Shown: positions 32,798 through 53,325 of the stretch, piece by piece | How the letters are laid out: each line of letters opens with the position of its first letter | How positions within the stretch are numbered: the stretch's first letter is position 1 | DNA from: Candidatus Omnitrophota bacterium | Lineage (GTDB): Bacteria > Omnitrophota > Gorgyraeia > Gygaellales > Profunditerraquicolaceae | DNA: 64,000 nucleotides | Direction of reading: 5' to 3' | Assembly (NCBI GenBank): GCA_028716705.1 | Contig: JAQUPI010000003.1 | Location: forward strand, 7,737 to 71,736 | Program-made: the position numbers and the translations under genes | Notes under the pieces: generated by a model | The model's database searches: none | What the model was told of the DNA's origin: nothing | Seen by the model: the letters and a program-made list of their open reading frames with translations, nothing else

Positions 32798-32848
32798 AAT
32801 TGGTTTTAAAAATAGGATTAATTAACAAATTTAGAGGAGGTGAGAAGG

Positions 32849-33392: not shown

Positions 33393-34916
33393 ATGTTGAG
33401 AAAATTCAGGCTAAAGCTGGTTTACGGTTTCATATTCAGCCTCTTTATTCATGCCTTTTCTTTTGCCATGGCGAAAGAAATCAACATCCCCAGCCAGTTC
33501 GGTAGCACAAAAGAAATATTCCAGCCCGCGAATCCCGGCCCTTCCGCAGAACGCACCATCATCCATATACAGGACGCGCATTGTAATTATGAGGCCCAAA
33601 AAAACATGGCCCAGCTCTTAGATTATTTGGCCAAAGATGACAATCTTAAACTGATCATGGTCGAAGGCGGTAGCGGGGACGTCAGCTTGCGGTTTTTAAG
33701 GGGCTACGCGGATAAGAAGGCCAGAGAACAGGTCGCGGAAAAATACCTTAAGGCGGGAAAGATCTCCGGCGAAGAGTATTTGGATATCGTTTCCGATCAC
33801 GCTATAGAGCTTTACGGGATAGAGGATGAAGGCTTGTATGAAGCGCATTTGGCGAGTTTCCAAAAAGTGGATTCTTTCAGGCAGAAGGCGCTGCAAGATT
33901 TAGGGGCCTTAGCAGGCATAGTAAATGGGCTCAAATCCAGGATATATCCGGAAGATCTGCGGCGTTTAGACGAACAAAAAAGCAGTTATGAGGGGCAAAA
34001 GACCGCGTTAGCCGAATATTGCCGCTTCCTTAATAATACAGCCGCAAAAAAGAGGATCGGCCTTGGCGCTTACCCGCACCTGGGCGCCTTTTCAGAGACT
34101 GCCCGCCTGGAAAAAGAACTGGACCTTAGGCAAGCGGAAGCCCAGCGCAACGCTTTCATCAAGGATCTGGCCAAGCTTTTAAACGAAAGAGAGGCGCAGA
34201 ACCTTATCCTTATGACCCAGGGTTTTAAGGCAAAAATGATCACTCCTGAGAAATATTATTCTTTTTTGTTGGACACCGCCACCGAACAAAAGATCAACCT
34301 GAGCCGCAGGTACCCTGAGCTTGGCGCTTATATCAGGTACGTGACCACAAGCGGGAATGTAGACGCGGCCGAGCTTTTAAAGGAAGTAAACGCGGCAGAA
34401 GAGAAGATAAAAGACGCTTCATTGAGCAGCCCTGAACAGAAGAAATTATCCGAGATTGACAAATCCCTCCATATCTTGACCAAAATACTGAACTTGGAAT
34501 TGACCCCTGAAGATTACGCGTATTTCAAAGAAAACACGCGCCGGTTCATGACTGCCGGTTGGATAGGTTTTTTAAATGAAGAGTGCGACAAATATAATTT
34601 TTCCACCCGGCCTTTTTTTGTCAAGGCCATCGATGAAAACCTGAAGGAGCTTGACGGATTTTACCGGTTGGGAGTAGCAAGGGAAGAGGCCTTTATCAAT
34701 AATTTGGCGGCCAAGCTCGACGATTCAAAAGAAAAGACCGCGGCGCTCATTACCGGCGGGTTCCACACGCCGGGCATTACCCGCAATTTAAAGAACCGCG
34801 GTTATTCTTATATAGTAGTCACCCCGGTGATCACGCAGAAAAGCGAACCGGACCTTTATTTTTCCGTGCTAAGAAGCGAGAAAAGACAGCCCGTAAGGGT
34901 TTCCGATGAAGAATAG
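33393..34916 (+). CDS. Exported hypothetical protein (507 aa) with an N-terminal signal peptide; possible ChaN/EreA/Tiki-superfamily fold
   Basis: RBS GGAG. Hydrophobic N-terminus 'LVYGFIFSLFIHAFSFAMA'. The 'TIIHIQDAHCNYEAQKNMAQLLDYLAKDDNLKLIMVEGG' pattern is reminiscent of the ChaN/EreA N-terminal block (weak). The stop overlaps the next gene by 11 nt. Confidence 0.7.
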   Translation: MLRKFRLKLVYGFIFSLFIHAFSFAMAKEINIPSQFGSTKEIFQPANPGPSAERTIIHIQDAHCNYEAQKNMAQLLDYLAKDDNLKLIMVEGGSGDVSLRFLRGYADKKAREQVAEKYLKAGKISGEEYLDIVSDHAIELYGIEDEGLYEAHLASFQKVDSFRQKALQDLGALAGIVNGLKSRIYPEDLRRLDEQKSSYEGQKTALAEYCRFLNNTAAKKRIGLGAYPHLGAFSETARLEKELDLRQAEAQRNAFIKDLAKLLNEREAQNLILMTQGFKAKMITPEKYYSFLLDTATEQKINLSRRYPELGAYIRYVTTSGNVDAAELLKEVNAAEEKIKDASLSSPEQKKLSEIDKSLHILTKILNLELTPEDYAYFKENTRRFMTAGWIGFLNEECDKYNFSTRPFFVKAIDENLKELDGFYRLGVAREEAFINNLAAKLDDSKEKTAALITGGFHTPGITRNLKNRGYSYIVVTPVITQKSEPDLYFSVLRSEKRQPVRVSDEE

Positions 34917-37900
34917 ATTAAATAGAAAACAATTAAAAAGGAGAATGAAAATGAACGCAGGGAATTTCCACAAGAGTTTATTGGCCAGGATAATGAGCCT
35001 TATCATTATCGTAAATTTCATTATTACCACCGGCCCTGTGAGCCTTTACGCGCAGGACATGTTGAAGGCGCCGTCAGCGGTCCAGAAAAATGACAGTCCT
35101 GTCCAGAATTTGATCGACGATCTCAGGGCGACGCAGGCAGGCCGTGAAATAGCCGCCTTTAAACGGATCGGCATACTCACCAGCGGCGGCCCGGCTTCCG
35201 GACATAACGCGGCCATTTACGCGGCAGTCGAAAAAATGAAAGAGCAGGGCATAGAGGCAGTGGCGATCCTGGACGGTTTTGACGGATTATACGAGGAGAA
35301 ATTAGTCAGCCAGGCACGGCCCCTTAGCCTGGAAGAGGCAAGGTCCCAGCGCAATAAAGGCGGGACAATGCTCGGTACTGACCGCATGAACCCCTTTGAG
35401 GCTAAAAATGTCGCAAACGGAGTTCCGCAGGCGATCTGGACGAATATCCAGAAGCTGAAACTGGACGGCTTGATCGTTCTCGGAGGCAACGACAGCCAGA
35501 GCACGTCTTATAAATTACAACAAGAGCATCCGGATTTCCCGATCATAGGCCTGGCTAAGACTATGGATAATGATCTGGCTTTACCTGAATTGGATGCTTT
35601 AACCTACGGTTTTGATACTTTTGTCAGGGAAACCACAAGGGCCCTGATAAAAATGATCCGCGATTGCCGCTCTATGAGAAGGATCGGGGTGGTTGAGGTA
35701 TTCGGCAGGAGCGCGGGGCATGTAGCGTTGCACGCCGGAGCCAATGTCAGGGCAAGCCGTACACTTTTACCCGAGGAAGGCAACCTTGATCTAGAGCAAC
35801 TGGTGAGCGACCTTAGAGAGAGCAAAAATAATGATAAATACAGAGCAGCCTTGTTAGTAGTTTCAGAAGGCATAAGTATAAGCAAGGATTACAAGAATAA
35901 CGCAGGCATATTGGAAAAAGCTTTTGCCGAAGACGAAGTGGCCAAGGCGGCTTTTGAAAAGGCGGTTAAGGGCGCCAAAAAAGATTCCTTCGGTAATCCT
36001 AAACTGGAGAATACCGGGAAAATCATCGCCGCGGTCTTGCGCTCGCAGGGTTTAGCCGTGAGCGAAGACCAGGTTAAATACATCGCGCGTTCGGCCAACC
36101 CTTCAAAGTTAGATATCGCCATGACAGAGCTTATAGGCCGCGCGGCGGTAGAAAATCTTTTGCAGGGAAACCATGGCCGCATTTTATACGCCTATAACAA
36201 TCAAGCCAGGTCTATCCCGTTCGCCTCGGACGTGGGGGGCAGAGTAGCGGACCTGACAGGGCATAAGCAGCTGTATTTAAGGGCGAACCAGGCCTTTGAT
36301 ATTAAGGTATCGGATAAGCCGGCTCTGAATTTTGCGAATACGGCTGAAGTCAATAGCGCGATAGCCGGCATATTGGCTGTCAGCGACAAGGCTGTCAGCG
36401 TGCTTGATGAAGAACGCCTGAGGAGCCAGCTTATTGATAACCTGGTTTATGACGCTACATTCGGCAGCGATAAGGAAGTAGTTAAGCTTTGCCGCCGGCT
36501 CATTAAAGACACCGCAGCCGCCCAAGGCGCGGTGCTCGGTTCTGTTTATGAGCTTTACAGGGCGAAAGCGAAAGATAAAAAACAATATACAGTCCCGGCG
36601 ATAAATATCAGGGGCATGGGTTACAATACCAGCAGGGCGGTATTCGCCTCAGCCATAGATAACAATGCCGATAAGTTCATCTTCGAGATCGCAAGGAGCG
36701 AGATAGGTTATACGGCTCAGCGGCCGGCGGAACTAGTTACCTCCGTTTTAGCGGCGGCGATCAAGGAAGGCTATAACCTGCCTGTATACCTGCAAGGCGA
36801 TCATTTTCAGGTTACGCTTAAGGACTATACGGCAAGCCCGGAAAAAGCAAAAGATTATATTAAAGGGTTGATCCGCGAGGCGATAGAAGCGGGCTTCTAT
36901 CAGGTAGACCTGGATATGTCACAACTAGTGGATTATACCAAGGCCGATGTTCAAGAGCAGCAGGAACTGAACTACAAATTAGTGGCTGAACTTACCGCTT
37001 ACGTGAGGGATTTGGAAAGGGAATTAGGTTTAGACAGAGCGGGTATCGTTGTTAATTTGGGCGGTGAAATAGGAGAGATCGGCAAGGGCTTAGCCGAAAA
37101 GGACCAGAAGAACAGCACCGTCGCGGAATTAAGGGCGTTTATGGACGGTTACAACGCTGAATTAAAGCGCCTCAGCCAGGAAAAAGGATACGAGCTGAAC
37201 CCTATCACAAAAATCGCGATCCAGACCGGCACTCAGCATGGCGGCATCAGAAACGCCAAAGGTGAATTGGTCAGGGCCAAGGTTAGTTTTAACGCCATTG
37301 CCGAACTCGGTAAAGTAGCCAGGGAAGAATACAGCCTGGCGGGCGTAGTGCAGCATGGCGCGTCCACCCTTCCCGAAGATAATTTTACGCTTTTCGCGGG
37401 CAACACCCCGGAAGGCCTGGTTATTGATGAAAGCCTTTTGAATGAGGCTTCTAAAAATATATTGAGCACCAACCCCGCCGCCGAAGTGCATCTGGCTACG
37501 GCTTATCAAGACACGATCATCGATCATCCCAGGATGCCCGCTTCTATGGTTTCCCAAATGAGGGAATACATTTTCAGCAAAAATCCGGTTAAGGAAAACC
37601 AGAACGCGGACGGAGTCTTTGTTTCCAACCGCAAAAATGTTTGGGGCCCGTTCAAGGCCCAGGTATGGAACCTGCCTGCTGGCGTGCAAGAAGCTATGCG
37701 CGACAGCCTGCGCGGACAATTCGACGTGGTCTTTAACAATATGGGGGTGAAGAATTCATCCCAGGCGCTTATCGCGCAAAAGGCCTCCGAAAAGGCAAAG
37801 CTTGTTAAAACAAGACTGGCTATAAATAACCCCGGTGGGCAAGAACGGGAGCTTATCAGGCTTTGGCTGGCAGGCAAATCCGCCGGTATCGACTTAGTCG

Positions 37901-40900
37901 GCGTAAACGGTATTTCTCCGGGCAGCCTGTATTATCTTTTAACCAAGGATTTCACCGCCTCCCCGGATGTCAGGGCATGGTTCACCGCTAATTTCACTTC
38001 GCTGCCGGAAGGCATAGGCGACAAAAACAAGAAACTCATTCTGCCTGTCACTGAAATTATCGACGCTAAGGACTTGCCTTGGAAGAAATTGAACCCGGAT
38101 GTCGTGCTTGAGGGTTCGGATCCGCAGCTGGCGGCCAGCCATAAGAGCCAGGGCGCGAAATCCGTCATTGTTGCCCACCCGGCTTTAACCGCGGTCAGCG
38201 CCTTAATGCCGGTCATTTCCGTCATGGGCGACCAGATCAAAGGCATCAATTTTACGGATATCCAGCCGCCTACGCCTTTACAGCGCGGCCTTGATAATTC
38301 CGGTCCGGACCCGGTATTGATGCGGGCCATGGGGATTAACCTCGTTCCTTCATTAAGAAAGGACATAGACAAATATGTGCAGGCATTATGCCCCGCGGAT
38401 CTAGCCGCGCATATAAAGGGCGCGATCAATTTTGCGCCTCAGGCGTTAGGTTCATTGCTGGACGTTCATATAGTCGTAAATAAAGATACTGACGCCGCGG
38501 CTATAAATAAACTGTTCAAGGCCGCGATCGAAGGCGTTTTAAAAGGCAAGGTATCTTACTCGCAGGATTCCTCTCTGGTATCCGTGGATACTTACCAGCA
38601 GCCGCAGCTTATCTTCTTGGCCAACAACACGAAGGTTACCGGGAAGAGGATCGTGCATTTACAATTCATGCACAATGAGGAGGCGACCTTTGCCGCGACG
38701 CAAGTACCTTTATTACTGCAGGCGCTGAAGGAGGGAAAAGCCCCCTCGATTATTACATCCAAAGATACTCAAACTATCTCCGCGGACGCTCAGGTAGTCT
38801 TGGATATCATCCAGGCAGAGCAGTCTAAGATGGCCAGGCCCGCGTTCCTGGGTACCAACCTGGCTTTTATTCCCGCTCTCGACGGCAACGTCAAGCCGCG
38901 TATCGTAGTTCGCGGCAAGGCCGTTAGTCCCGCGATCGTAGGTATAAACGGTCCCGGAAGAGTGGGCAGGCCTTCGACCTGGGCAATGCAGGGGGACCCG
39001 AATGTCGACCTGAGGATGATCAACGGTTCTTCCAGCGCTTTGATCCTGTCATGGTTATTGTCCGAAGATTCCGTGCAGCAGTCAATATCAAAGCCGGTCA
39101 CAAGAATAGTAATAACCCCCGCGCAGTTAAAGAGGGAAGTTTCCTCTCTGCTGGGCAGCTACAGTATCGAGCAGGTAAACGGATTCTTGACCGGCCTGCT
39201 TAGCTCTCAAAGATTATACCTGCTTAAAGAAAAAGAAGAATTCGTTCCTTACATCAAAAACCTCCTGGCCTCTTGGGGCAAGCCCAGTAATGAGCTTGAT
39301 TCCGCGGCCAATTGGTTGCTGAAGAGCCTGGTAGGCGTTTTAGATATTAACGGTAAAAAAGTCCTGGTAGTTAACGAGAGAAAAGCGATCACGGAACTTC
39401 CCTGGGACGTAGCAGGCATAAAGACGATCATGGAGTGTACCGGGGATCTGAAGAACGCTGACGAAGCCAGGCAGCATCTGGCGCATATTTCCGGAGGCAA
39501 GGTGATCATATCCGCTCCGGCCGAAGGAGCAGGCCAGTCTATCGTCTTGGGCGTAGTAGAGCCCAGCCGCGCTGCTCAGATCGTGGATAATGCCAGCTGC
39601 ACCACCAACTGTTTAATGCCTATGGTCGCGGTTTTGAATAAGGCATTCGGCGTGCTCATGCAGGAGATCACCACTGTCCATGCTTATACCACCGACCAGA
39701 CTTACGCCAGACAGGCAACACATAAAAAGGAAGCTACCCGCGGGAGGGACGCAAGGACGAACAGCCTTCCCGGTTCTACCGGAGCTGCCAAAACCGCCGC
39801 CGTTATATATCCGGACCTTGCCGGAAGGTCCGACGGTTGGGCAGTGCGCACGCCTCACGTCACCGGTTCTGCCGTAGCCCTGACCGCTACACTTAAGGGC
39901 AATGTGACCAAAGAACAGATACAGGCGGCGTTTAAGAGCGCCAGCGAAAAGGAAATGGCCGGGATCATGGCTTATACCCAGGCCCCGATCGTTTCTTCAA
40001 TGATCATCGGCAACCCGGCTTCCAGCATCATTGACGGTAATGCCATTGAAATCATCAGCTACGACGAAGAACTTGACCAGACCACAGCCGGTATTACCTC
40101 CTGGTATGACAATGAATATGGTTTCTCAAACCGTATGGTGAACCTTGCCGTAGCCCTGCAAGGCTTCTCTTTGATCAAAGGGAAAGCCCTGGCAGACATA
40201 GGCCCCAAAACCGTCGAGTTATTTGAAAACAAAATAAAAGAGATCTCTCCTGCCACGGTAGTCTGGAACGGGCCGATGGGCGTAGTGGAAGTTGCGGCTA
40301 CGAGCAAGGGTACTGACGGAGTGGCCATGGCGATCACCGCCTTAGGCGATAAAGTAGTTAAGGTTGTGGGAGGGGGGGATACCTTAAAGACGCTTTCGGA
40401 AGAAGAACGCGAGAAATTCACGCACGTCTCAACCGGCGGCGGCGCCTTCCTGGAGGCATTTCAATTCGGCGTGGATAATCTCCCGGGGATTAAGGCCCTG
40501 ATCGATCCTTCCACGGGCAAGATGGCGACGATGGACGGGCTCCTGCCGGTTTTGAAAGAGGGAGATACCGTCTTGATACGAGTTGACTTCAACGTGCCTT
40601 TGGATTCGCAATTAAAAGTAACAGATAGCACCAGGATCAAAGAAACAATGGTTACCATAAGGCCGTTGTTAGAGAAAAAGGCCAAGGTCATCCTGATGAG
40701 CCATTTAGGCCGGCCTAACGGGAAATTCGACGCTAAGCTTACCATGAACCCGGTGGCTTATGAACTGCAGAAACTCTTGCTAAAAACCAAAGTACATAAA
40801 TTGGATGACTGCGTGGGTAAGCCCGTGCAGGATTTTATCCAGAATACGGTAAAGCCCGGTGAAGTCGTAATGCTGGAGAATACCCGTTTTCGGTTAGACG

Positions 40901-42408
40901 AAGAACAGAATGCCTCTGGTTTTTCAAAGGATTTAAGCCAGCTGGCCACATATTACATTGATGACGCCTTTGGCACCGCGCACCGCGCGCATGCTTCGAA
41001 CGGCGGCATTACCTCAAATTACGCCTGGGGCAAGAAGTTCGCTGGCAGGCTTCTGGAGAAAGAAGAGCAGTATCTGAAACAGGTCTGCGAGAGTCCCAAG
41101 GAGCCCATGGTCGTAGTTTTGGGCGGAGGCAAGGTCAGCGATAAGATACATATCATCAATACCTTGAAACAGAAAGCGTCTGCTTTCCTGATCGGCGGAA
41201 GGATGTCTTTGGCATTCTTGGCAGCTCAGGGTCAGCAAGTCGGTGATTCCACGCCCGATAAACTTGACGTGGATACCGCCAAACGTTTCCTCGCCGATCC
41301 GCAGTTAAAAGGCAAGATCATTCTGCCGCAGGATAACATGGTGGTTACCGATATCTCTACGGGCGCGGACGCGACAGTTGTAGAAGGCAGTGTTGAGCCT
41401 TCGGATATGAGCGCGTTCCAGGAACAATTCCTGGCTTACCTTAAGTCTTATGTTGCTCTTGAAAGCGCGGAAGGAAAAGCGCTCGCTGCCGTCCAGAAAG
41501 CTGAAACCGAAGCCAGGCGGCTTATAGGTCTTCCCACCGCGCCAGAAGCTGCTCCTACTGTAACTCAGGCGGCAGTCGATCCCGCTCAATTAAGGTTCGG
41601 CGAGGCGAATGGTTTCCTTACTCCTGAGTCGCAGGCCAGAAACAAACCGGATTTCCAATATACCATGGGTTTTGGGGATGCCGCTAATTCCTACAGACCA
41701 GCCTCTGATTTAAGCCCGGCACTGCTGGTTCCCGAAGGCACCGTGTATACGGGAACTTCCGTGCTTTTCGGTAATTTCGCAAATGCCGTTAAGAATCGTG
41801 ATATAGCCGAAAGGGACGGCGCTGTCGTCATAGGGGCGAACGTGATATTGGAGAACGCGGGCTCTTTGACCAGCCTGAAGGCATTCAAGGATACAGGAAA
41901 AATCGTTGTTTATGCGCAAGACACTTCAACCCTGGAAGTTTTAAAAGCCATGGGGATAGATTCGGTAACGAAAAATATCATAAACGGGGAAACAAAAGGC
42001 GTCTCGATCGAGAATATCGCCATAGAATACAGCATGTCGGGCGAGACCGTCCTGGTTACCGCTCCCGTGGATCGTAAAGATATCAACTTAGGCAACATTC
42101 AAAAGGCTGGTGTCCGGATGTTGAATCTGGAGACGCCCAAAACTGAAGTAGGCAAGATAAACAGCATGCCGCTGGTTATCGCCAGGGCATTTGCCAGGAT
42201 TTACCAGGAAGACGCGAATGTGCCCAGGCAATTTAACACCTTAAGCAACAATTACGCAACGAAGAACCAGGTATTGGCGACAGATATCGAGAAGCTTAAC
42301 AACCTGGCTTCCCAGATCTGCGACGTGCCTTTAGTGCAGTTGAATATGGAGCAGGATAAAGAGATAATCGCGGCCCAGATGGCTTACCAGGCGGCCGTAA
42401 GCATATAA
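34906..42408 (+). CDS. 2500-aa fusion protein: N-terminal signal/anchor, then phosphofructokinase, class II fructose-bisphosphate aldolase, a ~400-aa unknown module, GAPDH, a circularly permuted phosphoglycerate kinase, and a conserved C-terminal domain
   Basis: Single stop-free frame. All four enzyme families are recognisable by their hallmark motifs in series (see sub-features). The start overlaps the upstream gene, which implies translational coupling. Confidence 0.9.
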   Translation: MKNRLNRKQLKRRMKMNAGNFHKSLLARIMSLIIIVNFIITTGPVSLYAQDMLKAPSAVQKNDSPVQNLIDDLRATQAGREIAAFKRIGILTSGGPASGHNAAIYAAVEKMKEQGIEAVAILDGFDGLYEEKLVSQARPLSLEEARSQRNKGGTMLGTDRMNPFEAKNVANGVPQAIWTNIQKLKLDGLIVLGGNDSQSTSYKLQQEHPDFPIIGLAKTMDNDLALPELDALTYGFDTFVRETTRALIKMIRDCRSMRRIGVVEVFGRSAGHVALHAGANVRASRTLLPEEGNLDLEQLVSDLRESKNNDKYRAALLVVSEGISISKDYKNNAGILEKAFAEDEVAKAAFEKAVKGAKKDSFGNPKLENTGKIIAAVLRSQGLAVSEDQVKYIARSANPSKLDIAMTELIGRAAVENLLQGNHGRILYAYNNQARSIPFASDVGGRVADLTGHKQLYLRANQAFDIKVSDKPALNFANTAEVNSAIAGILAVSDKAVSVLDEERLRSQLIDNLVYDATFGSDKEVVKLCRRLIKDTAAAQGAVLGSVYELYRAKAKDKKQYTVPAINIRGMGYNTSRAVFASAIDNNADKFIFEIARSEIGYTAQRPAELVTSVLAAAIKEGYNLPVYLQGDHFQVTLKDYTASPEKAKDYIKGLIREAIEAGFYQVDLDMSQLVDYTKADVQEQQELNYKLVAELTAYVRDLERELGLDRAGIVVNLGGEIGEIGKGLAEKDQKNSTVAELRAFMDGYNAELKRLSQEKGYELNPITKIAIQTGTQHGGIRNAKGELVRAKVSFNAIAELGKVAREEYSLAGVVQHGASTLPEDNFTLFAGNTPEGLVIDESLLNEASKNILSTNPAAEVHLATAYQDTIIDHPRMPASMVSQMREYIFSKNPVKENQNADGVFVSNRKNVWGPFKAQVWNLPAGVQEAMRDSLRGQFDVVFNNMGVKNSSQALIAQKASEKAKLVKTRLAINNPGGQERELIRLWLAGKSAGIDLVGVNGISPGSLYYLLTKDFTASPDVRAWFTANFTSLPEGIGDKNKKLILPVTEIIDAKDLPWKKLNPDVVLEGSDPQLAASHKSQGAKSVIVAHPALTAVSALMPVISVMGDQIKGINFTDIQPPTPLQRGLDNSGPDPVLMRAMGINLVPSLRKDIDKYVQALCPADLAAHIKGAINFAPQALGSLLDVHIVVNKDTDAAAINKLFKAAIEGVLKGKVSYSQDSSLVSVDTYQQPQLIFLANNTKVTGKRIVHLQFMHNEEATFAATQVPLLLQALKEGKAPSIITSKDTQTISADAQVVLDIIQAEQSKMARPAFLGTNLAFIPALDGNVKPRIVVRGKAVSPAIVGINGPGRVGRPSTWAMQGDPNVDLRMINGSSSALILSWLLSEDSVQQSISKPVTRIVITPAQLKREVSSLLGSYSIEQVNGFLTGLLSSQRLYLLKEKEEFVPYIKNLLASWGKPSNELDSAANWLLKSLVGVLDINGKKVLVVNERKAITELPWDVAGIKTIMECTGDLKNADEARQHLAHISGGKVIISAPAEGAGQSIVLGVVEPSRAAQIVDNASCTTNCLMPMVAVLNKAFGVLMQEITTVHAYTTDQTYARQATHKKEATRGRDARTNSLPGSTGAAKTAAVIYPDLAGRSDGWAVRTPHVTGSAVALTATLKGNVTKEQIQAAFKSASEKEMAGIMAYTQAPIVSSMIIGNPASSIIDGNAIEIISYDEELDQTTAGITSWYDNEYGFSNRMVNLAVALQGFSLIKGKALADIGPKTVELFENKIKEISPATVVWNGPMGVVEVAATSKGTDGVAMAITALGDKVVKVVGGGDTLKTLSEEEREKFTHVSTGGGAFLEAFQFGVDNLPGIKALIDPSTGKMATMDGLLPVLKEGDTVLIRVDFNVPLDSQLKVTDSTRIKETMVTIRPLLEKKAKVILMSHLGRPNGKFDAKLTMNPVAYELQKLLLKTKVHKLDDCVGKPVQDFIQNTVKPGEVVMLENTRFRLDEEQNASGFSKDLSQLATYYIDDAFGTAHRAHASNGGITSNYAWGKKFAGRLLEKEEQYLKQVCESPKEPMVVVLGGGKVSDKIHIINTLKQKASAFLIGGRMSLAFLAAQGQQVGDSTPDKLDVDTAKRFLADPQLKGKIILPQDNMVVTDISTGADATVVEGSVEPSDMSAFQEQFLAYLKSYVALESAEGKALAAVQKAETEARRLIGLPTAPEAAPTVTQAAVDPAQLRFGEANGFLTPESQARNKPDFQYTMGFGDAANSYRPASDLSPALLVPEGTVYTGTSVLFGNFANAVKNRDIAERDGAVVIGANVILENAGSLTSLKAFKDTGKIVVYAQDTSTLEVLKAMGIDSVTKNIINGETKGVSIENIAIEYSMSGETVLVTAPVDRKDINLGNIQKAGVRMLNLETPKTEVGKINSMPLVIARAFARIYQEDANVPRQFNTLSNNYATKNQVLATDIEKLNNLASQICDVPLVQLNMEQDKEIIAAQMAYQAAVSI
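35160..36235 (+). other. pfk: Domain: 6-phosphofructokinase (PFK-A family; residues suggest a PPi-dependent type)
   Basis: 'RIGILTSGGPASGHNAAI', 'LIVLGGNDSQST', 'GLAKTMDNDLALPELDALTYGFDT' and 'EVFGRSAGHVALHAG'. The D in GGNDS and the K in AKTMDND correspond to the Asp/Lys pair typical of PPi-PFKs. Confidence 0.8.
36580..37650 (+). other. fba: Domain: class II (metal-dependent) fructose/tagatose-bisphosphate aldolase
   Basis: 'YTVPAINIRGMGYNT', 'LPVYLQGDHFQV', 'YQVDLDMS', 'IQTGTQHGG' and 'VVQHGASTLPED' correspond to class II FBA blocks. Confidence 0.65.
38895..40160 (+). other. gap: Domain: glyceraldehyde-3-phosphate dehydrogenase
   Basis: 'IVGINGPGRVGR', 'GGKVIISAP', 'IVDNASCTTNCLMP', 'TVHAYTTDQ', 'SLPGSTGAAK' and 'WYDNEYGFSNRMVNL'. 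Confidence 0.9.
40190..40510 (+). other. pgk: Domain: the last ~105 residues of PGK (nucleotide-binding half), placed upstream of the PGK N-domain
   Basis: 'DIGPKTVELF', 'VVWNGPMGVVEV', 'VVGGGDTL', 'HVSTGGGAFLE' and 'LPGIKAL' are normally the C-terminal blocks of PGK. Confidence 0.85.
40565..41395 (+). other. pgk: Domain: PGK N-terminal (3-phosphoglycerate-binding) domain through the hinge and the first part of the C-domain
   Basis: 'LIRVDFNVPL', 'ILMSHLGRPNG', 'VMLENTRF', 'YIDDAFGTAHRAHAS', 'VVLGGGKVSDKIHIINTL' and 'FLIGGRMSLAFLAAQG'. Confidence 0.9.
41740..42405 (+). other. Conserved ~222-aa C-terminal domain of unknown function, shared with the next ORF
   Basis: 'VYTGTS..GNFA', 'GxNVILENAG.xTSL', 'VVYAQD', 'KINSMPL.I.RAF' and 'LNNLASQ.CDVPLV.L' align colinearly with 47470-48138. 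Confidence 0.8.
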
Positions 42409-42453: not shown

Positions 42454-45400
42454 ATGCGGCCTTTGAAGCCCGGCTCATTACGCAAAATCATTATATTCCT
42501 TACCCTTGTCAGTTTCATTGCGTCTTTCGCGCCGGCTCAACTCTACGCGCAGATCCTTTCCGATACGCTCAGGACATCTTCGGCCAGGGCTACTGCCGTA
42601 AAGGATGAGATCGCCGTTGATCTGCTTAGAAGCGGCAAGCTTCCCTATGTGGTCACCTACGCAGACCCGCGCTCCGAAAGGAAAGAGACTGCCGGGGGAA
42701 AGTGCGCGCAGCTGGCCTGGGCATATAACCGGGGGATCCCCAATCCTCTGGGTTTTAGCATAACCGTGGAAGCGGTGAGGGAGTATTACAGGTACAATCC
42801 CAAACTCATAGAGATGATCAAAGATGCGCGTAACCTTGACATAAACGATGCCAAGAAACGCGCGGAGACAGCTTTACGGATACAGAATTTTATGATGAAG
42901 GAAACGAAGCTCCCTCCGGCCGTTTTTAAGGCGGTAAGCGATGACCTCGTGATGATGAGCAGGGTCTTGGGTTATGAAGAGGACGAGATGGTCCCGGTCG
43001 CCTACCGGGGAAGCGGCGTTATCGAAGACTTTGAAGGAGCCATACCCTGGTTCAAGAAAACGATCGGAGCCCAGCCGGGGCAAGGCACCACGCTGCTCAA
43101 CAAGCGCGGTTTTACCGATATTGAGCCATCGGTGATCGAAGTTATCGCCGGCTTGTTCAATGACCAGATATTCGTCTACCGCGATGTCCAGATCTTTTTT
43201 GATTTTGTGAGCAAGATGCGGGATGTCTCAGAGTATAACAAATTGATCCTTTGGGCGAAGAAATACGGTTTTAACGTTGCGGCCAGCAGGCTGGAGAATG
43301 AAAATTCACCCGGCTATGTCAACCTGCGCAAGATGATCGAGGAGATCGAGGCAAAGGAGCCGGGGGCGAAAGAGCAATATAAATGGGGTGATAAACTTGA
43401 GAAATCGGCAAACGATATCCTGGAGCCCATGAATTTTGTTACCGGCATTGCCGTGCTGGAAATGGCGGATAGTTTATTTTCCGGAACCGCATTCACTTCA
43501 CACCTGGGAACCGGATTCGACGGCTCAACATTCGCCAAGAAAACAAAAGGTCTTTTCCCGAAGAAGAGAGGGGATAAGTTCGATGGTTATACCCGCTATG
43601 TAAAAATAAATTTAGGCACAGGGTTAGGGCCCGGCATTGTAGAAGGAAAATTCCAGCCGAATATCGTAACCTTCTTTGATATTACCGGCCAGGGCAAATG
43701 GGTGCCTACCGAATTTTCAGTGGGCAAGAAACACATGAGTTTGATATATATAGATAAGGTTATCGATTCTTTAGCACCAAAATTCGCAAGGGAACAGATC
43801 TACCTCTTTGCCCAGTTATACGCGGATTGGCAAAACCCGATCAAGCAGCAGGGGGTCCGGGTCGCCCTTAAAACGGAGTTCAATATCGAAGCGGAAAGCT
43901 GGATACGGGCGATGATGGACCTGTGGTATTTTTATGATAAACCCGATAAACATAAAGCCACCGCCCAGGAAAAAGCGGTTTTATTGAAGGAACTCAACGT
44001 AAACGAAAATGAATTCTTTACCTTAAGCCATTTAGTCAAACATATCAATAAGGTCGCGACCAGTTATGATACGGCCTCTTATATGCTTACTTCCCCGGAA
44101 CTCGCGTCGAGCAGGCTTTTAAGCGATGAAGGTTACAAGAAACTCGCGGACATGATCGCTAAAGTCGGCAATCTTATGGCCCAGGAGCGGTTTGAGGCCG
44201 CCGACAAGGGCTGGCGCGAGCGCAGGGATATCGAGTTTTCGGTTGTCCGCTGCAACGAAAACGACACAAGTAAATATAAGGTAAAACTGGAACATATTTA
44301 TGACCTGGTAACCGGCAATGACCTGGGGGAGGGCTGGGTAAAGATACTGCATATCCAGAACCGGCCGATCAATCCGGAAAAAGAGATACAGGACCCGGAT
44401 AACATAATTTTCAAGAAGATGAAGGTCGACGAAGATTTTGTGGACGGCCAGGGTATTTTGCCTATCGCGAAAAACGGGCTGGTTGGCTATGGAGCGGCTG
44501 AAGGCATGCTTTATTTTGTCGATCCTTACAACGACCTGGCTGAGCAAGAAGAAGAAGTCGCGAAGATGAAAGACCAGGGAAAGAGCGTGATCGTGGTCCT
44601 GGAAGAAATGGGCCCTGAGCATGATCCTATAGTAGAAAAAGCGGGCGCCGCGATCGTGTGGAGGGGTAATGACACCAGCCACGCTTATATATTCAGCCTG
44701 GAATTAAAGATCCCCATCGTTATAAACGCGGCTACGCAGCCAGGGTTCGAAGGATATCTTAAGGACCGCATGAACGCGGTTATTGACGGCTCAGGGGGAA
44801 TGATCTATCCCGGAGATAAAGAGATCCCTCTGCTTCCGGACAATCTGATCATACGCGTAGACATGCTTCCGGAGACGAAAGTCGGGATGATCGTTTCCAC
44901 GCTGCAAAGCGCGCAGGAGGTAGCGCGGTTAGGAGCGAAGAGTGTCCTTACCCGTATGGAATTTTTGATCAATAATGTAGTCAAAATATACCCGCAGGCG
45001 GGTTGGGCCTATGACCTGATGACCAAGCTGGATAACGGGCAGATAAGCGAGTCCGGCCTTACTCCCGAAGAGCTGAAAGACGTAGCGGCATTAAGGCAGC
45101 ATCCGGAGATAATAGAAGAGATCAGAAAGATGATCACAAGCTTTCCGTCGGCAACTGAATTCATGGCTGAAAAGATGCGTTATGCCGGCAACGCGCTTGG
45201 TTCTATCTTTCCTATACTTAATGAAATGCGCGCCTACGATAATAAGGAAAAAGAAGCGCTTCTTTACGGGCTTATCGGCGCCAAACTTTATCTGCGTTAT
45301 GACGATAAAAATCCTGAATTCGATTCCCCGTTGGTCGGCATGCGCGGCTCAGCGTTAATGAGCCATCCGCATCTAAAGAAGGGATTTCAGGCTTTAAACA

Positions 45401-48141
45401 GGGGCGTCATCCGCTCGGTGAAAGACGGGTTTAAAAACAATGCCTTTTTCTTCGTTTATCTGAGGAATACCCATGAGCTGAAAACGCAGCTTGCAGACTT
45501 CGAGAGACTATGCCAGGAGGAAGGGGCCTATCCTGAAGAGATCGGCACCATGATCGAACTGGGAGGCAATCTCTGGATGATAAAAGAGGTCAGCCAGATA
45601 TTTTCCGATTTTGTGGCAAAACATAAAAAAGACGGCGTTAAGCGGTGGTATATTTCTTTCGGGACCAATGACCTTACCAATTCGCTCGGCAAGACCTCGA
45701 GGGACGATAAAGACTTTACCGGGGAGCTAAAGGTGCTGCAACCGGCGTTGATCAACGCGGATCCAGCTGAGGCAAAGATTGAAGTTGTCCCTGGCGCGGT
45801 TTACGGGCCCAAAGAATACGGCCAGCCTTTTACCGTCACTCTTAACGATGAGGCGGCTCCGGGGGTAATACGCTTTATAGAAAATGCCACCGCGGTTGTC
45901 AGAAATATGGGCGGCCATGTATATTTGTGCGGACAGGCGGTGAGCAAGGCCATCAACAAGGGGGATGTGCAGACCGGGATGAAACTTTTATCTGTATTGG
46001 ACGCGGTCGGCACGCAGAGTATTACCTTTGTATCCGGGGCAATGCTTGATTTTGATACCCGGGTTTCGCTTACCCGGATATCGAAAGACGCCTTATCCGA
46101 CAAGACGCCCGCCGCTAAATTATCCGACATTAAAAAAGAGGCGGAAAACGCGGTTTTGATTTCAGAGTCTGTGGTAGTGGAAAAACCGCAGGATATACTT
46201 AAGCTCCGTGAAGGGCAGAATAAACAGAAGATAGTGATAATGAAAACAACCTGGGAGCGCAAAGACCTGGAAGATATGGGTATCCCGTGGGATTACCTTA
46301 ATTACGCCGGAGCTATCCTGTTGTCTAACGGGGTAAAACCCGGGACAGGCATCCTCGCGGAGCCGGGAGTAAAATCCAGGGTTAAGGCCAGGCTTATCGG
46401 GGGAGCGACCATCGTTTCCGGAGAACCGTTGACAATAGCATACGGCGAACAAGCTGTGTATAAAGGCGTCTATTCTACGTATGCCGAAGAGACCAGGGTC
46501 CCGCAGCTGCGTATGCCTAAAGAGGGGATGATCCCGGTGGCCAAACCCATAATACGCATAAGCGCGGGCGACCTCTTCGTGCGCCGGGGCGATAGCCCCG
46601 CGGCAATTGACATACATCCTTTGGCATTCGCGCTGTATAAAGCGAACCCCGACGCGGTCTCTCAAGAGACCCGCGCGGCGATCGTGGGGCTTATCGGCGG
46701 CGAAGATCCGTTAATTTACCTGCATGAACGTTTTGTCGAATATGTGGCGGCGAAGGCACAAGAGGCGGTCCAGAATAACCGGGTCCCGGTTTATACTCTT
46801 TTGCGGCTTACCCGTAACCAGTTGAGGGATCTTAAGGAGGGTGAGGCGATAGAAAAGACAAAGGGCAAAGAGGGGGTTAACTTTGACGACCCGCAGTGCC
46901 GCTTACAGGGAGGCGCCAGGGCACTTAATGATTTTTGGCAGATATTTAACACGGAAATAGCGGCGTTTAGGGAAGTAAAAACCGGATACCCGGCCATGGC
47001 GTTGCAATTGTCGGCAATGGGAACGCGTTCCCAGGAAGTAATAGAGATGCTGTTTCGCGCCCTCAAGCCCTTGGGCATAACCCCGCAGGATCAGGAGATA
47101 GGACTTGAACTTACTACGGCGCTTGACCCTTTGCAGGTAGAAGATTATATAAAGCAAGGCATTAAGTTTTTCAGTTATAATGACAGGGAATTGGCGGAAG
47201 CCCTTCTTTCTGTTAATTTGAACCACCCCGATATATTCTCCGTAGAAGGCAAAGAAGCGATGGTTAAACAGGCACTGGAAGCCCCCGTCGCTTACATAAA
47301 AGGCATTGTTGCGGAAAACGCCGATAGCGGCGTATGGGTAGGCTTAAACCCGCAGCAATCAGCAGTTGAAACCGCAGTTATCCCCGCGGCTCCCCTCGAG
47401 CCTTTGGTTACCGCGCCCGCGGAGCGTCTTAGGCGTGAGCTTGATGAAACAACCCTCTACACATCTGAGAGCGCGGTTTACACAGGCACTTCCGAGCGCT
47501 TGGGAAATTTTGCTGATTCAATAAAAGATTCAAAGCTTGAGAAAAATAGCGCGACAATAATCTTAGGCGGGAATGTAATACTTGAAAACGCGGGGGCAAT
47601 GACTTCCCTTATGAGATTTAAAGGGACCGGTAATTTAGTGGTCTATGCCCAGGATGGAGCAATATTAAATGCTTTGAAAGCCATGGGGGCGGATGAAGTT
47701 GTGAACGCCATAATAAGCCGGCAGGAGGTTCAACAGGATCTGGCTGAGCTTGCCTTTGATTATGCTAAAAAAGGGCCAACCGTTTTGATCACTTCTCCCC
47801 TGGACCGTAAGGGCGTGGATTTGACGAGTATTCCTTATGGAGTGCAATTAGTGAATCTTGATTCACCCAAGCCCGAAGAGGGGAAAATAAACAGCATGCC
47901 GCTGGCTATTTCCCGGGCATTTACCGCCATTTTGAAGAATGACCCGGCTGTGGTCAGTCAGTTCAATGCCCTAAGCCAGAATTACGCCGCTAAGGGTCGG
48001 ATATCCGGTAGAGATTTAGAGGCATTGAACAACCTGGCCTCGCAGGTTTGCGACGTACCGCTTGTAGAGTTAACTCAACAAAAAGACAGGGAAGTGATCG
48101 AGGCCCAGATAGCCTATCAAGCTACGGTAGGCCAGATTTAA
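42454..48141 (+). CDS. 1895-aa fusion protein: signal peptide, a pyruvate phosphate dikinase / PEP synthase-family enzyme (ATP-grasp N-domain, phosphohistidine domain, PEP-utilising TIM barrel), a ~480-aa unknown region, and the shared C-terminal domain
   Basis: RBS GGAGG. Signal 'IIIFLTLVSFIASFAPAQLYAQ'. Dikinase motifs 'AGGKCAQLA...GIPNPLGFSIT', 'VWRGNDTSHAYIFSLELKIPIV', 'WYISFGTNDLTNSLG' and 'VYLCGQA'. Confidence 0.85.
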   Translation: MRPLKPGSLRKIIIFLTLVSFIASFAPAQLYAQILSDTLRTSSARATAVKDEIAVDLLRSGKLPYVVTYADPRSERKETAGGKCAQLAWAYNRGIPNPLGFSITVEAVREYYRYNPKLIEMIKDARNLDINDAKKRAETALRIQNFMMKETKLPPAVFKAVSDDLVMMSRVLGYEEDEMVPVAYRGSGVIEDFEGAIPWFKKTIGAQPGQGTTLLNKRGFTDIEPSVIEVIAGLFNDQIFVYRDVQIFFDFVSKMRDVSEYNKLILWAKKYGFNVAASRLENENSPGYVNLRKMIEEIEAKEPGAKEQYKWGDKLEKSANDILEPMNFVTGIAVLEMADSLFSGTAFTSHLGTGFDGSTFAKKTKGLFPKKRGDKFDGYTRYVKINLGTGLGPGIVEGKFQPNIVTFFDITGQGKWVPTEFSVGKKHMSLIYIDKVIDSLAPKFAREQIYLFAQLYADWQNPIKQQGVRVALKTEFNIEAESWIRAMMDLWYFYDKPDKHKATAQEKAVLLKELNVNENEFFTLSHLVKHINKVATSYDTASYMLTSPELASSRLLSDEGYKKLADMIAKVGNLMAQERFEAADKGWRERRDIEFSVVRCNENDTSKYKVKLEHIYDLVTGNDLGEGWVKILHIQNRPINPEKEIQDPDNIIFKKMKVDEDFVDGQGILPIAKNGLVGYGAAEGMLYFVDPYNDLAEQEEEVAKMKDQGKSVIVVLEEMGPEHDPIVEKAGAAIVWRGNDTSHAYIFSLELKIPIVINAATQPGFEGYLKDRMNAVIDGSGGMIYPGDKEIPLLPDNLIIRVDMLPETKVGMIVSTLQSAQEVARLGAKSVLTRMEFLINNVVKIYPQAGWAYDLMTKLDNGQISESGLTPEELKDVAALRQHPEIIEEIRKMITSFPSATEFMAEKMRYAGNALGSIFPILNEMRAYDNKEKEALLYGLIGAKLYLRYDDKNPEFDSPLVGMRGSALMSHPHLKKGFQALNRGVIRSVKDGFKNNAFFFVYLRNTHELKTQLADFERLCQEEGAYPEEIGTMIELGGNLWMIKEVSQIFSDFVAKHKKDGVKRWYISFGTNDLTNSLGKTSRDDKDFTGELKVLQPALINADPAEAKIEVVPGAVYGPKEYGQPFTVTLNDEAAPGVIRFIENATAVVRNMGGHVYLCGQAVSKAINKGDVQTGMKLLSVLDAVGTQSITFVSGAMLDFDTRVSLTRISKDALSDKTPAAKLSDIKKEAENAVLISESVVVEKPQDILKLREGQNKQKIVIMKTTWERKDLEDMGIPWDYLNYAGAILLSNGVKPGTGILAEPGVKSRVKARLIGGATIVSGEPLTIAYGEQAVYKGVYSTYAEETRVPQLRMPKEGMIPVAKPIIRISAGDLFVRRGDSPAAIDIHPLAFALYKANPDAVSQETRAAIVGLIGGEDPLIYLHERFVEYVAAKAQEAVQNNRVPVYTLLRLTRNQLRDLKEGEAIEKTKGKEGVNFDDPQCRLQGGARALNDFWQIFNTEIAAFREVKTGYPAMALQLSAMGTRSQEVIEMLFRALKPLGITPQDQEIGLELTTALDPLQVEDYIKQGIKFFSYNDRELAEALLSVNLNHPDIFSVEGKEAMVKQALEAPVAYIKGIVAENADSGVWVGLNPQQSAVETAVIPAAPLEPLVTAPAERLRRELDETTLYTSESAVYTGTSERLGNFADSIKDSKLEKNSATIILGGNVILENAGAMTSLMRFKGTGNLVVYAQDGAILNALKAMGADEVVNAIISRQEVQQDLAELAFDYAKKGPTVLITSPLDRKGVDLTSIPYGVQLVNLDSPKPEEGKINSMPLAISRAFTAILKNDPAVVSQFNALSQNYAAKGRISGRDLEALNNLASQVCDVPLVELTQQKDREVIEAQIAYQATVGQI
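44640..44730 (+). other. Phosphohistidine (PEP-utilising mobile) domain motif
   Basis: 'GNDTSHAYIFSLELKIPIV' parallels 'GGRTSHAAIIARELGIPAVVG'. Confidence 0.8.
47470..48138 (+). other. Second copy of the shared ~222-aa C-terminal domain (paralogous to 41740-42405)
   Basis: See 41740-42405. Confidence 0.8.
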
Positions 48142-49970: not shown

Positions 49971-49973
49971 ACG

Positions 49974-50852: not shown

Positions 50853-50857
50853 AAGAG

Positions 50858-51706: not shown

Positions 51707-51711
51707 AAAAA

Positions 51712-51743: not shown

Positions 51744-51822
51744 GCCATTTTAATTGTGATTAACACCCAAACCTATTTGATGGTTTGGTGTGCACTTGCT
51801 GCGTAAGGAGAAAGGGTAATTA

Positions 51823-53319: not shown

Positions 53320-53325
53320 GGCTGG

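What the first reader, a model, noticed from the sequence alone, without database searches (positions are those of the whole stretch)
40190..41395. Circularly permuted phosphoglycerate kinase inside the fusion
The PGK blocks that are normally C-terminal ('DIGPKT', 'WNGPMGV', 'GGGDT', 'STGGGAFLE', 'LPGIKAL') lie directly after the GAPDH C-terminus and before the canonical PGK N-terminus ('LIRVDFNVPL'). The N-domain segment then runs through the hinge ('FLIGGRMSLAFLAAQG') and stops roughly where the relocated piece would normally begin. The two pieces therefore complement each other as a circular permutation, with the breakpoint just before the DIGPKT block. A natural permutation of PGK would be unusual, and it may be an adaptation for packing next to GAPDH (substrate channelling of 1,3-BPG).
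Basis: seen in the sequence. Interest (0 to 1): 0.8.

Follow-up and report, generated by a model that had tools for sequence, protein, structure and literature searches.

The report
Naturally circularly permuted phosphoglycerate kinase
Inside a 2,500-residue glycolytic fusion protein of an uncultured Omnitrophota bacterium, phosphoglycerate kinase is encoded with its last quarter moved in front of its first three quarters, a natural rearrangement that looks functional and that I found described only for engineered versions of this enzyme.

Summary
ORF 34906..42408 (+) encodes a 2,500-aa fusion with a signal-like N-terminus: PFK, class-II aldolase-like, Cys-less GAPDH-like domain, active GAPDH, PGK and a C-terminal domain (CTD).

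PGK is circularly permuted:
- Residues ~1759-1865 match T. maritima PGK 292-392.
- A 7-residue connector follows.
- Residues ~1873-2166 match PGK 11-280.
- The cut lies in the loop between 'IP(S/D/E)' and 'GWxGLDIGP'. I see no overlap or loss.

Evidence that it is real and probably active:
- 99 of 111 near-invariant PGK columns are kept, including all substrate, nucleotide and Mg residues.
- AlphaFold gives pLDDT 91 and pTM 0.88.
- Three assemblies reproduce the gene. A strain variant differs at 14 codons, 13 synonymously.
- No other PGK piece lies in the window.

An exhaustive search of 1.84 billion representatives found only three other clusters with this order. At least one of them, like the window, is Omnitrophota. 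All share the breakpoint, directly follow GAPDH, and form one clade.

Tandem PGK-PGK proteins exist elsewhere, which fits a duplication-truncation origin.

Channelling of 1,3-BPG is untested. The literature searched describes only engineered permuted PGKs. Verdict: a new variant of a known enzyme.

The parts
34906..42408 (+). Whole ORF, 2,500 aa. Order: signal/anchor-like N-terminus, PFK, class-II aldolase-like region, Cys-less GAPDH-like domain, active GAPDH, permuted PGK, conserved helix, linker, CTD.
   Evidence: Identical protein in NCBI (MDD4939506.1 / MDD5552554.1, Candidatus Omnitrophota).
34972..35046 (+). Hydrophobic helix (residues 23-47) after a Lys/Arg-rich N-terminus, ending ...SLYAQ. 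It looks like a signal peptide or signal anchor.
   Evidence: Kyte-Doolittle scan. The same feature occurs in the neighbouring megaproteins and in relatives.
35164..36225 (+). Phosphofructokinase domain (residues 87-440).
   Evidence: Pfam PF00365 E 4.6e-59; NCBIfam PFK models.
36706..37086 (+). Core of the class-II aldolase-like region (residues 601-727 matched; the domain probably spans about 560-950).
   Evidence: Weak Pfam GatZ/KbaZ-like match, E 4.9e-4, below the curated cut-off. Homologous fusions carry PF01116.
37783..38925 (+). GAPDH-like domain (residues ~960-1340) without the catalytic SCTTNC motif; probably non-catalytic.
   Evidence: Pfam Gp_dh_C E 1.4e-8. Sequence read. Conserved in P0147 and P0150.
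38938..40170 (+). Active-looking type I GAPDH (residues 1345-1755), with SCTTNC and WYDNEYGFSNR motifs and an ~80-aa insertion in the NAD domain (residues ~1399-1478).
   Evidence: Pfam Gp_dh_N and Gp_dh_C; TIGR01534 E 9e-89; insertion conserved in P0146, P0147 and P0150.
40180..40500 (+). PGK C-piece (residues ~1759-1865), equal to T. maritima PGK ~289-392: DIGP, WNGPMG, GGGDT, STGGGAFLE, LPGIKAL. It starts about three residues after the GAPDH C-terminal helix.
40501..40521 (+). Connector IDPSTGK (residues 1866-1872) joining the native PGK C-terminus to the native N-terminus.
   Evidence: AlphaFold pLDDT is 97-98 across this junction.
40522..41403 (+). PGK N-piece (residues 1873-2166), equal to PGK ~1-288: the N-domain, the hinge helix and the first part of the C-domain. 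It ends at ...VEPS, equivalent to canonical 'IP(S/D/E)'.
41404..41490 (+). Conserved helix after the break (DMSAFQEQFLAYLKSYVALESAEGKALAA), present in all four permuted lineages. It may be a vestige of the helix that follows DIGP in a lost second copy.
   Evidence: Conservation. Weak hhalign extension with a 6-residue gap (overall probability 69.5%).
41719..42405 (+). CTD, about 225 aa (residues ~2272-2500). It is shared with the extreme C-termini of the next ORF and of many Omnitrophota PFK-aldolase-GAPDH fusions. It is not PGK.

Best explanation
This is a genuine, catalytically competent phosphoglycerate kinase whose polypeptide order is circularly permuted. The chain leaves the GAPDH C-terminal helix and enters the PGK C-domain at the strand carrying DIGP. 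It then runs to the native PGK C-terminus, crosses a 7-residue connector into the native N-terminus, builds the N-domain, the hinge helix and the first part of the C-domain, and exits at the loop where it entered.

The enzyme should fold into the normal two-lobed PGK and convert 1,3-bisphosphoglycerate plus ADP into 3-phosphoglycerate plus ATP. The substrate would come from the GAPDH fused directly upstream. Because of the permutation, PGK is spliced into the polyprotein through one surface loop of its nucleotide-binding domain, so the N-domain and hinge stay untethered (inference).

The most likely origin is a head-to-tail pgk duplication or fusion. The first ~288 codons of copy 1 and the last ~105 codons of copy 2 would then have been lost. 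This happened once, in an Omnitrophota lineage that already built glycolytic fusion proteins (inference).

Shown: homology, complementarity of the pieces, conservation, purifying selection, a confident predicted fold. Inferred: activity, intrachain assembly, the origin pathway, any kinetic benefit.
For: - Two complementary matches to PGK in swapped order. A single collinear HSP against a tandem PGK.
- The cut falls exactly between canonical 'IP(S/D/E)' and 'GWxGLDIGP', with no overlap or deletion.
- 99 of 111 columns that are >=95% conserved in 120 canonical PGKs are identical. They include D1894/N1896, R1910, H1933, R1936, R1994, H2026/R2027, K2076, K2080, N1788, E1795 and GGGD 1822-1825. By my mapping to human PGK1 these are D23/N25, R38, H62, R65, R122, H169/R170, K215, K219, N336, E343 and G371-D374.
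- AlphaFold2 model of residues 1755-2175: pLDDT 91.3, pTM 0.88, with pLDDT 97-98 over the joined native termini.
- Two Logan assemblies are 100% identical. A JGI contig is 99.8% identical with no indels. Of its 14 codon differences 13 are synonymous.
- Three further clusters (P0146 67%, P0147 58%, P0150 49% identity) match the whole module in one stretch. They share the same breakpoint, connector and post-break helix and always follow GAPDH.
- dN is 0.24-0.51 with saturated dS.
- The four form an exclusive clade among 249 PGKs.
- Tandem PGK-PGK proteins exist (P0148, P0149).
Against: - No enzymatic or structural experiment exists.
- I could not superpose the model with a permutation-aware aligner, because model coordinates are not exportable. 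Placement of the C-piece therefore rests on pTM and pLDDT only.
- The alignment behind the model covers the C-piece with only about six collinear rows.
- 12 conserved columns differ. The residue before D of DIGP, part of the adenine pocket in canonical PGK, is Ala in all permuted forms instead of Leu or Val.
- I could not check whether the genome also has a canonical pgk that could make this copy dispensable.
- The tandem PGKs found lie outside the permuted clade, so they show feasibility and are not the ancestors.
Confidence: 0.85

Rival explanations
1. The two PGK pieces complement each other between chains (domain swapping). In a GAPDH-driven oligomer, the C-piece of one polypeptide would complete the N-piece of a neighbour.
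For: GAPDH is normally tetrameric (established knowledge), which would bring several PGK modules close together. The C-piece follows GAPDH after only about three residues. Nothing in my data distinguishes intra-chain from inter-chain assembly.
Against: The native termini are joined by a short, conserved connector that AlphaFold models at pLDDT 97-98 within one chain. The monomer model has pTM 0.88. An engineered permuted yeast PGK was solved as a single chain (PDB 1FW8).
Confidence: 0.08
2. The module is a non-catalytic relic. It would be a degenerate leftover of PGK used only as scaffold in the megaprotein, while a canonical PGK elsewhere in the genome does the chemistry.
For: The same ORF already holds a GAPDH-like domain that has lost its catalytic cysteine motif. 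P0147 and P0150 show more substitutions in conserved PGK motifs, for example RIDGNVPL and DSFSVDHRAHAS. Canonical PGKs exist in other Omnitrophota. I could not inspect the rest of this genome.
Against: Every substrate-binding, phosphoryl-transfer and Mg-binding residue is retained in the window protein. The same residues are visibly retained in all four lineages. Purifying selection is strong. A scaffold would not need to keep the GGGD, K-x3-K, WNGP and HLGRP motifs.
Confidence: 0.06
3. Assembly or gene-calling artefact: a chimeric join of two partial pgk copies.
For: The source is a metagenome-assembled genome. Some apparent tandem PGKs may be gene-call merges; NCBI calls a 400-aa PGK in the cluster of the 795-aa P0149.
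Against: The same 7.5-kb ORF is recovered in Logan assemblies of two runs and in a JGI contig with 14 SNPs and no indel. NCBI holds it under two accessions. Three divergent lineages from other samples share the same breakpoint. No direct DNA repeats flank the junctions.
Confidence: 0.01

Closest known systems
Canonical bacterial phosphoglycerate kinase (e.g. T. maritima 1VPE; Omnitrophota PGKs P0030, P0035, P0131)
   Same: Same family and the same catalytic, substrate and nucleotide residues, with about 45-51% identity per piece. The same two-lobed fold is predicted.
   Different: The chain order is permuted. The termini lie in a C-domain loop (about T. maritima residues 288/289) and the native termini are covalently joined. 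The module sits inside a 2,500-aa polyprotein and is not a free ~395-aa enzyme.
Engineered circularly permuted yeast PGK (PDB 1FW8; Tougard et al. 2002)
   Same: PGK with the native termini joined and new termini created elsewhere. It shows that the fold tolerates permutation.
   Different: It is man-made. Its new termini are at residue 72 in the N-domain. Here the break is natural and lies in the C-domain just before DIGP. It is conserved across four lineages and coupled to a GAPDH fusion.
Natural PGK fusion enzymes, e.g. bifunctional PGK/triosephosphate isomerase (NCBIfam NF010569)
   Same: PGK covalently fused to another glycolytic enzyme.
   Different: From the family model, PGK there is colinear and N-terminal, with TIM as partner. 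Here PGK is permuted and internal, and its upstream partner is GAPDH, the enzyme that makes its substrate.
Omnitrophota PFK-aldolase-GAPDH-CTD fusions (P0004-P0018) and very long Omnitrophota proteins ('Archaeovorins', West-Roberts et al., bioRxiv 10.1101/2023.11.21.568195)
   Same: Same phylum, the same signal-like N-terminus and the same CTD, with metabolic enzyme domains embedded in very long proteins.
   Different: Pfam lists no PGK domain for any of those fusions. The papers I searched mention neither glycolytic fusions nor a permuted PGK.
Tandem PGK-PGK proteins (P0148 797 aa, P0149 795 aa)
   Same: They contain the C-piece-to-N-piece junction in the same order, which is the postulated intermediate of permutation by duplication.
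   Different: Both copies are complete. They are not fused to GAPDH and they fall outside the permuted clade.

Membership tests
Phosphoglycerate kinase (Pfam PF00162, EC 2.7.2.3) | Significant sequence homology over both lobes | tested here: met
   Pfam E 6.8e-111, 371 bits against a cut-off of 27. The two pieces cover T. maritima PGK 11-280 and 292-392.
Phosphoglycerate kinase (Pfam PF00162, EC 2.7.2.3) | Colinear order: N-domain, hinge, C-domain, C-terminal helix | tested here: not met
   The order is PGK ~289-392, then PGK ~1-288. NCBIfam full-length models stay far below their cut-offs.
Phosphoglycerate kinase (Pfam PF00162, EC 2.7.2.3) | Basic patch for 3-PG/1,3-BPG (human R38, H62, R65, R122, R170; D23/N25) | tested here: met
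   R1910, H1933, R1936, R1994, R2027 and D1894/N1896 are identical to invariant columns of 120 PGKs. The human numbering is my mapping from established knowledge.
Phosphoglycerate kinase (Pfam PF00162, EC 2.7.2.3) | Nucleotide, Mg and phosphoryl-transfer residues (K215, K219, N336, E343, GGGD 371-374) | tested here: met
   K2076, K2080, N1788, E1795 and G1822-D1825 are conserved. They are also conserved in P0146, P0147 and P0150.
Phosphoglycerate kinase (Pfam PF00162, EC 2.7.2.3) | Two-lobed PGK fold | tested here: inconclusive
   The model is confident (pLDDT 91.3, pTM 0.88). PGKs are the top matches. The sequential aligners cover only the N-piece (282-296 residues), and a permutation-aware superposition could not be run.
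Phosphoglycerate kinase (Pfam PF00162, EC 2.7.2.3) | PGK catalytic activity | not testable with these tools
   Needs an enzyme assay of the recombinant module.
Natural circular permutant arising by duplication and truncation | The two segments are complementary, without overlap or loss, and the native termini are joined by a short linker | tested here: met
   The cut lies between 'IP(S/D/E)' and 'GWxGLDIGP'. The connector is 7 residues long, and the native N-terminal segment follows it.
Natural circular permutant arising by duplication and truncation | Tandem-duplicate intermediate in the same lineage, or vestiges of the deleted parts | tested here: inconclusive
   Tandem PGKs exist but lie outside the clade. 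The only possible vestige is the post-break helix, which aligns weakly to the helix after DIGP.
Natural circular permutant arising by duplication and truncation | Heritable and under selection (not an artefact or pseudogene) | tested here: met
   Independent assemblies. 13 of 14 strain differences are synonymous, and dN is far below dS between lineages. Four lineages share the breakpoint.
Substrate-channelling GAPDH-PGK complex | Direct transfer of 1,3-BPG between the active sites | not testable with these tools
   Only the covalent adjacency and the ~3-residue linker are shown. Geometry and kinetics are unknown.

The most novel reading that the evidence does not exclude
The permutation is adaptive. 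By moving the chain ends of PGK to a loop on its nucleotide-binding domain, it lets PGK dock rigidly against the C-terminal helix of a tetrameric GAPDH. The PGK N-domain stays free to close over the substrate. This would create a covalent GAPDH-PGK unit that hands over labile 1,3-bisphosphoglycerate. The unit would sit inside a membrane-tethered (possibly exported) glycolytic assembly held together by the shared CTD.
Probability: 0.15. Interest if true: 0.85.

Novelty: new variant of a known kind. Interest (0 to 1): 0.66.

Why it matters
- **Protein folding.** PGK is a textbook two-domain enzyme and a classic model for folding and hinge-bending catalysis. Its circular permutants have so far been laboratory constructs. 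A natural permutant conserved across lineages shows that evolution has used this route in a core glycolytic enzyme. It offers a natural sequence set for studying how chain connectivity affects domain closure.
- **Channelling.** It is always welded to GAPDH with almost no linker. That makes it a ready-made covalent GAPDH-PGK pair for testing the old, unresolved question of whether 1,3-BPG is channelled.
- **Annotation.** Full-length PGK models score far below their cut-offs on it, so pathway reconstructions could misjudge it.
- **Context.** Glycolysis spread over signal-bearing megaproteins that share a C-terminal domain may be the larger puzzle.

Tried and rejected
- **Word-indexed homologue search, PGK module.** It returned only canonical ~393-aa PGKs and missed even the identical protein. 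Its candidate filter hides long fusion proteins. The exhaustive representative search was needed to find the permuted relatives.
- **Same tool, 334-aa tail.** It found nothing, not even self. Local phmmer then showed the tail is a widely shared C-terminal domain.
- **Genome-contig scan with the junction alignment.** It was swamped by canonical PGKs because the patterns chosen were WNGPMG and GGAFLE. The one hit that seemed to span the junction (L012) is an ordinary PGK C-terminus.
- **Metagenome-contig scan with the family-specific post-break region.** It returned only the window's own population.
- **Foldseek against AFDB50.** The library was unavailable.
- **Is the tail a diverged second PGK C-piece?** Rejected.
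- **Are tandem PGK-PGK proteins the direct ancestors?** Rejected by the NJ tree.
- **Recent duplication visible in the DNA?** No direct repeats were found.
- **Literature.** Searches for a natural permuted PGK, a natural GAPDH-PGK fusion or Omnitrophota glycolytic fusions found only engineered yeast permutants.
Full report
**What is in the window.** The finding lies inside one long ORF, window 34906..42408 on the + strand, 2,500 codons. Pfam and NCBIfam place four enzyme families along it:
- phosphofructokinase, residues 87-440;
- a weak class-II aldolase-like match, residues 601-727;
- GAPDH, with the N-domain from residue 1345 and the C-domain at 1570-1718;
- PGK, in two separate stretches, the larger being residues 1885-2159 against profile positions 7-276 of 379.

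Residues ~960-1340 are a second GAPDH-like domain that lacks the SCTTNC active-site motif. An identical protein is in NCBI as MDD4939506.1 / MDD5552554.1, 'phosphoglycerate kinase [Candidatus Omnitrophota bacterium]'.

**Check of the observation.**
- A search of the PDB sequences with residues 1741-2215 gave T. maritima PGK (1VPE) as best hit, with two alignments in swapped order. ORF residues 1762-1864 match PGK 292-392 (E 3e-20). ORF residues 1885-2159 match PGK 11-280 (E 5e-58).
- tblastn of two canonical Omnitrophota PGKs against all six frames of the 64 kb finds only these two pieces.
- The natural tandem PGK-PGK protein P0148 aligns to the module as one uninterrupted HSP. P0148 residues 283-687 match window 40156-41400, at 39% identity and E 2e-74. 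A circular permutant should behave exactly this way against a duplicated reference.
- I de-permuted the module and aligned it with 120 canonical PGKs. The N-piece ends '...VVEGSVEPS', where canonical enzymes have '...IP(S/D/E)'. The C-piece begins 'GKALADIGPKT', where they have 'GW(M/I)GLDIGPKT'.
- The cut is therefore clean to within a residue or two. It lies in a loop of variable length between two strands of the nucleotide-binding domain, at about T. maritima residues 288/289.
- The native C-terminus (LPGIKAL) is joined by seven residues (IDPSTGK) to a segment that aligns with the native N-terminus (MATMDGLLPVLKEGDTVLIRVDFNVPL).

**Is it a working enzyme?**
- Of 111 alignment columns that are at least 95% conserved in the 120 canonical PGKs, 99 are identical in the window protein.
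- Mapping to human PGK1 numbering is from my knowledge of the family. By that mapping the conserved residues include the 3-PG/1,3-BPG ligands, the catalytic lysines, the nucleotide, ribose and phosphate ligands, and the Mg-binding GGGD motif. In order these are D1894/N1896, R1910, H1933, R1936, R1994 and R2027; K2076 and K2080; N1788 and E1795; and 1822-1825.
- An AlphaFold2 model of residues 1755-2175 was built with an alignment that included the permuted relatives and tandem PGKs. It has mean pLDDT 91.3 and pTM 0.88, with pLDDT 97-98 across the joined native termini and low confidence only at the new ends.
- These aligners are sequential, so they can cover only the N-piece. Model coordinates cannot be exported, so a permutation-aware superposition remains to be done.

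**Not an artefact, and under selection.**
- Logan assemblies of two sequencing runs carry the 7,503-nt gene with 100% identity. A JGI contig from another project carries it with 14 substitutions and no indel.
- Thirteen of those 14 codon changes are synonymous. The three that fall in PGK are all synonymous.
- There are no direct DNA repeats around the junctions.

**Relatives.**
- The word-indexed protein search was misleading here.
- The exhaustive HMMER search of 1.84 billion cluster representatives found, besides the window's own protein (P0001), three proteins that match the whole permuted module in a single stretch: P0146 (67% identity, JGI 3300035208), P0147 (58%, NCBI MCX5695737.1, Candidatus Omnitrophota, GCA_026387335.1) and P0150 (49%, JGI 3300009538).
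- In all four lineages the module follows GAPDH directly. They share the same 'WYDNE.GFSNR...S..K....ADIGP' junction, a similar connector, the same end point '(E)PSDM', and a conserved helix after the break.
- Downstream partners differ. The window and P0146 have the CTD. P0150 has enolase. P0147 has aldolase-like, TIM and enolase domains.
- Between lineages dN is 0.24-0.51 while dS is saturated.
- In a neighbour-joining tree of 249 PGKs (permuted ones de-permuted), the four form an exclusive clade. This indicates a single origin.
- Everything else in the top 150 is a canonical PGK matched in two stretches, a PGK fusion, or a tandem PGK.

**What lies downstream.**
It does not.
- Residues 2167-2195 form the conserved helix. 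A low-complexity linker follows.
- Residues ~2272-2500 are a ~225-aa domain that recurs at the extreme C-terminus of several other proteins. These are the next ORF (a PPDK fusion, E 5e-71), P0146, and about fifteen Omnitrophota PFK-aldolase-GAPDH fusions.

**Origin.**
- The anatomy fits the classical duplication-truncation route: two pgk copies fused head to tail, then loss of the front of the first and the back of the second. Every intermediate would remain functional.
- Supporting but not proving this, complete tandem PGK-PGK proteins exist in nature. P0148 is 797 aa, is seen on two contigs, and its second-copy start codon has been replaced. P0149 is 795 aa.
- The window's connector is followed by 'MA...', like a native start, though this is not conserved in the relatives.
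- hhalign extends the match of the N-piece end across the break. It aligns the post-break helix 'QEQFLAYLK' with the helix after DIGP if six residues are deleted. This is a weak hint only; the overall probability is 69.5%.
- The tandem proteins found are outside the permuted clade. Many Omnitrophota relatives have PFK-aldolase-GAPDH-CTD without PGK. So PGK seems to have been added between GAPDH and the downstream part in one sublineage.

**How it probably works.**
- Shown: a complete set of PGK parts in permuted order, conserved and selected, directly after an active-looking GAPDH.
- Inferred: the module folds intramolecularly into a normal PGK and phosphorylates ADP with the 1,3-BPG made by the adjacent GAPDH.
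- In a permutant the new N- and C-termini are neighbours in space. PGK is therefore attached to the polyprotein at a single point on its nucleotide-binding lobe. The substrate-binding N-lobe and the hinge stay free for the closure that catalysis needs.
- Whether this gives channelling is open. The very short GAPDH-PGK linker argues for a fixed geometry. However, the tether is on the lobe that does not bind 1,3-BPG.
- Assembly between chains within a GAPDH oligomer cannot be excluded.

**Comparison with what is known.**
- PDB 1FW8 is an engineered yeast PGK with new termini at residue 72 in the N-domain. It is cited as Tougard et al. 2002 in PMC7761438.
- PGK-TIM bifunctional enzymes are a curated family.
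- Full-text searches for natural permuted PGK, GAPDH-PGK fusions and Omnitrophota glycolytic fusions found no description of this arrangement. That includes three Omnitrophota genomics papers. The library covers open-access papers only.
- I therefore class it as a new variant of a known enzyme, not a new kind of system.

**Context worth noting.**
- The upstream 10,870-aa ORF contains a cofactor-independent phosphoglycerate mutase domain, the step after PGK.
- The downstream 1,895-aa ORF contains pyruvate phosphate dikinase domains plus the same CTD.
- Sugar transporters, a GH2-like protein and a ROK kinase follow.
- All these megaproteins, and their relatives, begin with a basic stretch and a hydrophobic helix that looks like a signal peptide or signal anchor. 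That is hard to reconcile with ATP- and NAD-dependent glycolysis and remains unexplained.

Noticed in passing
window 185-32797 (+); iPGM domain about 5699-7198; PCMT-like methyltransferase about 27317-27928: A 10,870-aa ORF directly upstream contains a cofactor-independent phosphoglycerate mutase domain (PF06415 and PF01676, E about 1e-80). That is the glycolytic step after PGK. It also has methyltransferase, HTH and HEAT matches. Glycolysis seems to be spread over several giant proteins at this locus.
   Followed up: partly
window 34972-35046, 42487-42543 and 33417-33473; also the N-termini of P0147, P0002-P0005, P0008 and P0013: The glycolytic megaproteins start with a Lys/Arg-rich stretch and one hydrophobic helix, ending in motifs such as LYAQ or FAQE. 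This looks like a signal peptide or signal anchor. Export of ATP/NAD-dependent enzymes would be very odd, and the topology is unexplained.
   Followed up: partly
[not shown]
   Followed up: partly
window 37783-38925: A GAPDH-like domain lacks the catalytic Cys motif and sits immediately before the active GAPDH. It is conserved in P0147 (390-767) and P0150 (391-772). It may be an intrachain pseudo-dimer partner.
   Followed up: partly
window about 39100-39340 (ORF residues ~1399-1478): An ~80-aa insertion in the NAD-binding domain of the active GAPDH is conserved in P0146, P0147 and P0150. Its function is unknown.
   Followed up: no
window 42454-48141 (+): A 1,895-aa ORF has pyruvate phosphate dikinase domains (PPDK_N, PEP-utilizers, PEP-utilizers_C) in its first ~1,100 residues. 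About 550 unassigned residues follow, and then the shared CTD.
   Followed up: partly
window 41404-41490: The helix just after the PGK break (SAFQEQFLAYLKSY...) is conserved in all four permuted lineages. After a 6-residue deletion it aligns weakly with the helix that follows DIGP in canonical PGK. It may be a vestige of the truncated second copy.
   Followed up: partly
L003 10001-20803 (P0147) and L004 9383-16696 (P0150): Relatives combine the same GAPDH-like/GAPDH/permuted-PGK module with other partners. P0147 (3,600 aa) adds aldolase-like, TIM and enolase domains. P0150 (2,437 aa) adds enolase. The first ~390 residues of both are unassigned.
   Followed up: partly
P0148 (797 aa), P0149 (795 aa), P0151, P0152, P0250: Complete or partial tandem PGK-PGK proteins occur in other metagenomes. 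In the P0149 cluster NCBI calls a 400-aa PGK, so some of these may be merged gene calls. P0148 looks like a true in-frame fusion.
   Followed up: partly
window 32840-33178; L005 3507-4231: Small PilZ-domain genes lie next to the fusion gene, both here (upstream) and beside P0146 (two copies downstream). This may link to c-di-GMP signalling.
   Followed up: no
window 40186-40194 (ORF residues 1761-1763): The residue before Asp of DIGP is Ala in all four permuted PGKs and Leu or Val in canonical ones. In human PGK1 this stretch (M311-L313, from memory) lines the adenine pocket. The nucleotide site next to the new N-terminus may therefore be remodelled.
   Followed up: no
window 48681-62055: Downstream genes are a sugar-type ABC transporter (SBP plus two permeases), an MFS_2 transporter, a GH2-like hydrolase and a ROK-family protein. 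This fits a sugar uptake and catabolism neighbourhood.
   Followed up: partly
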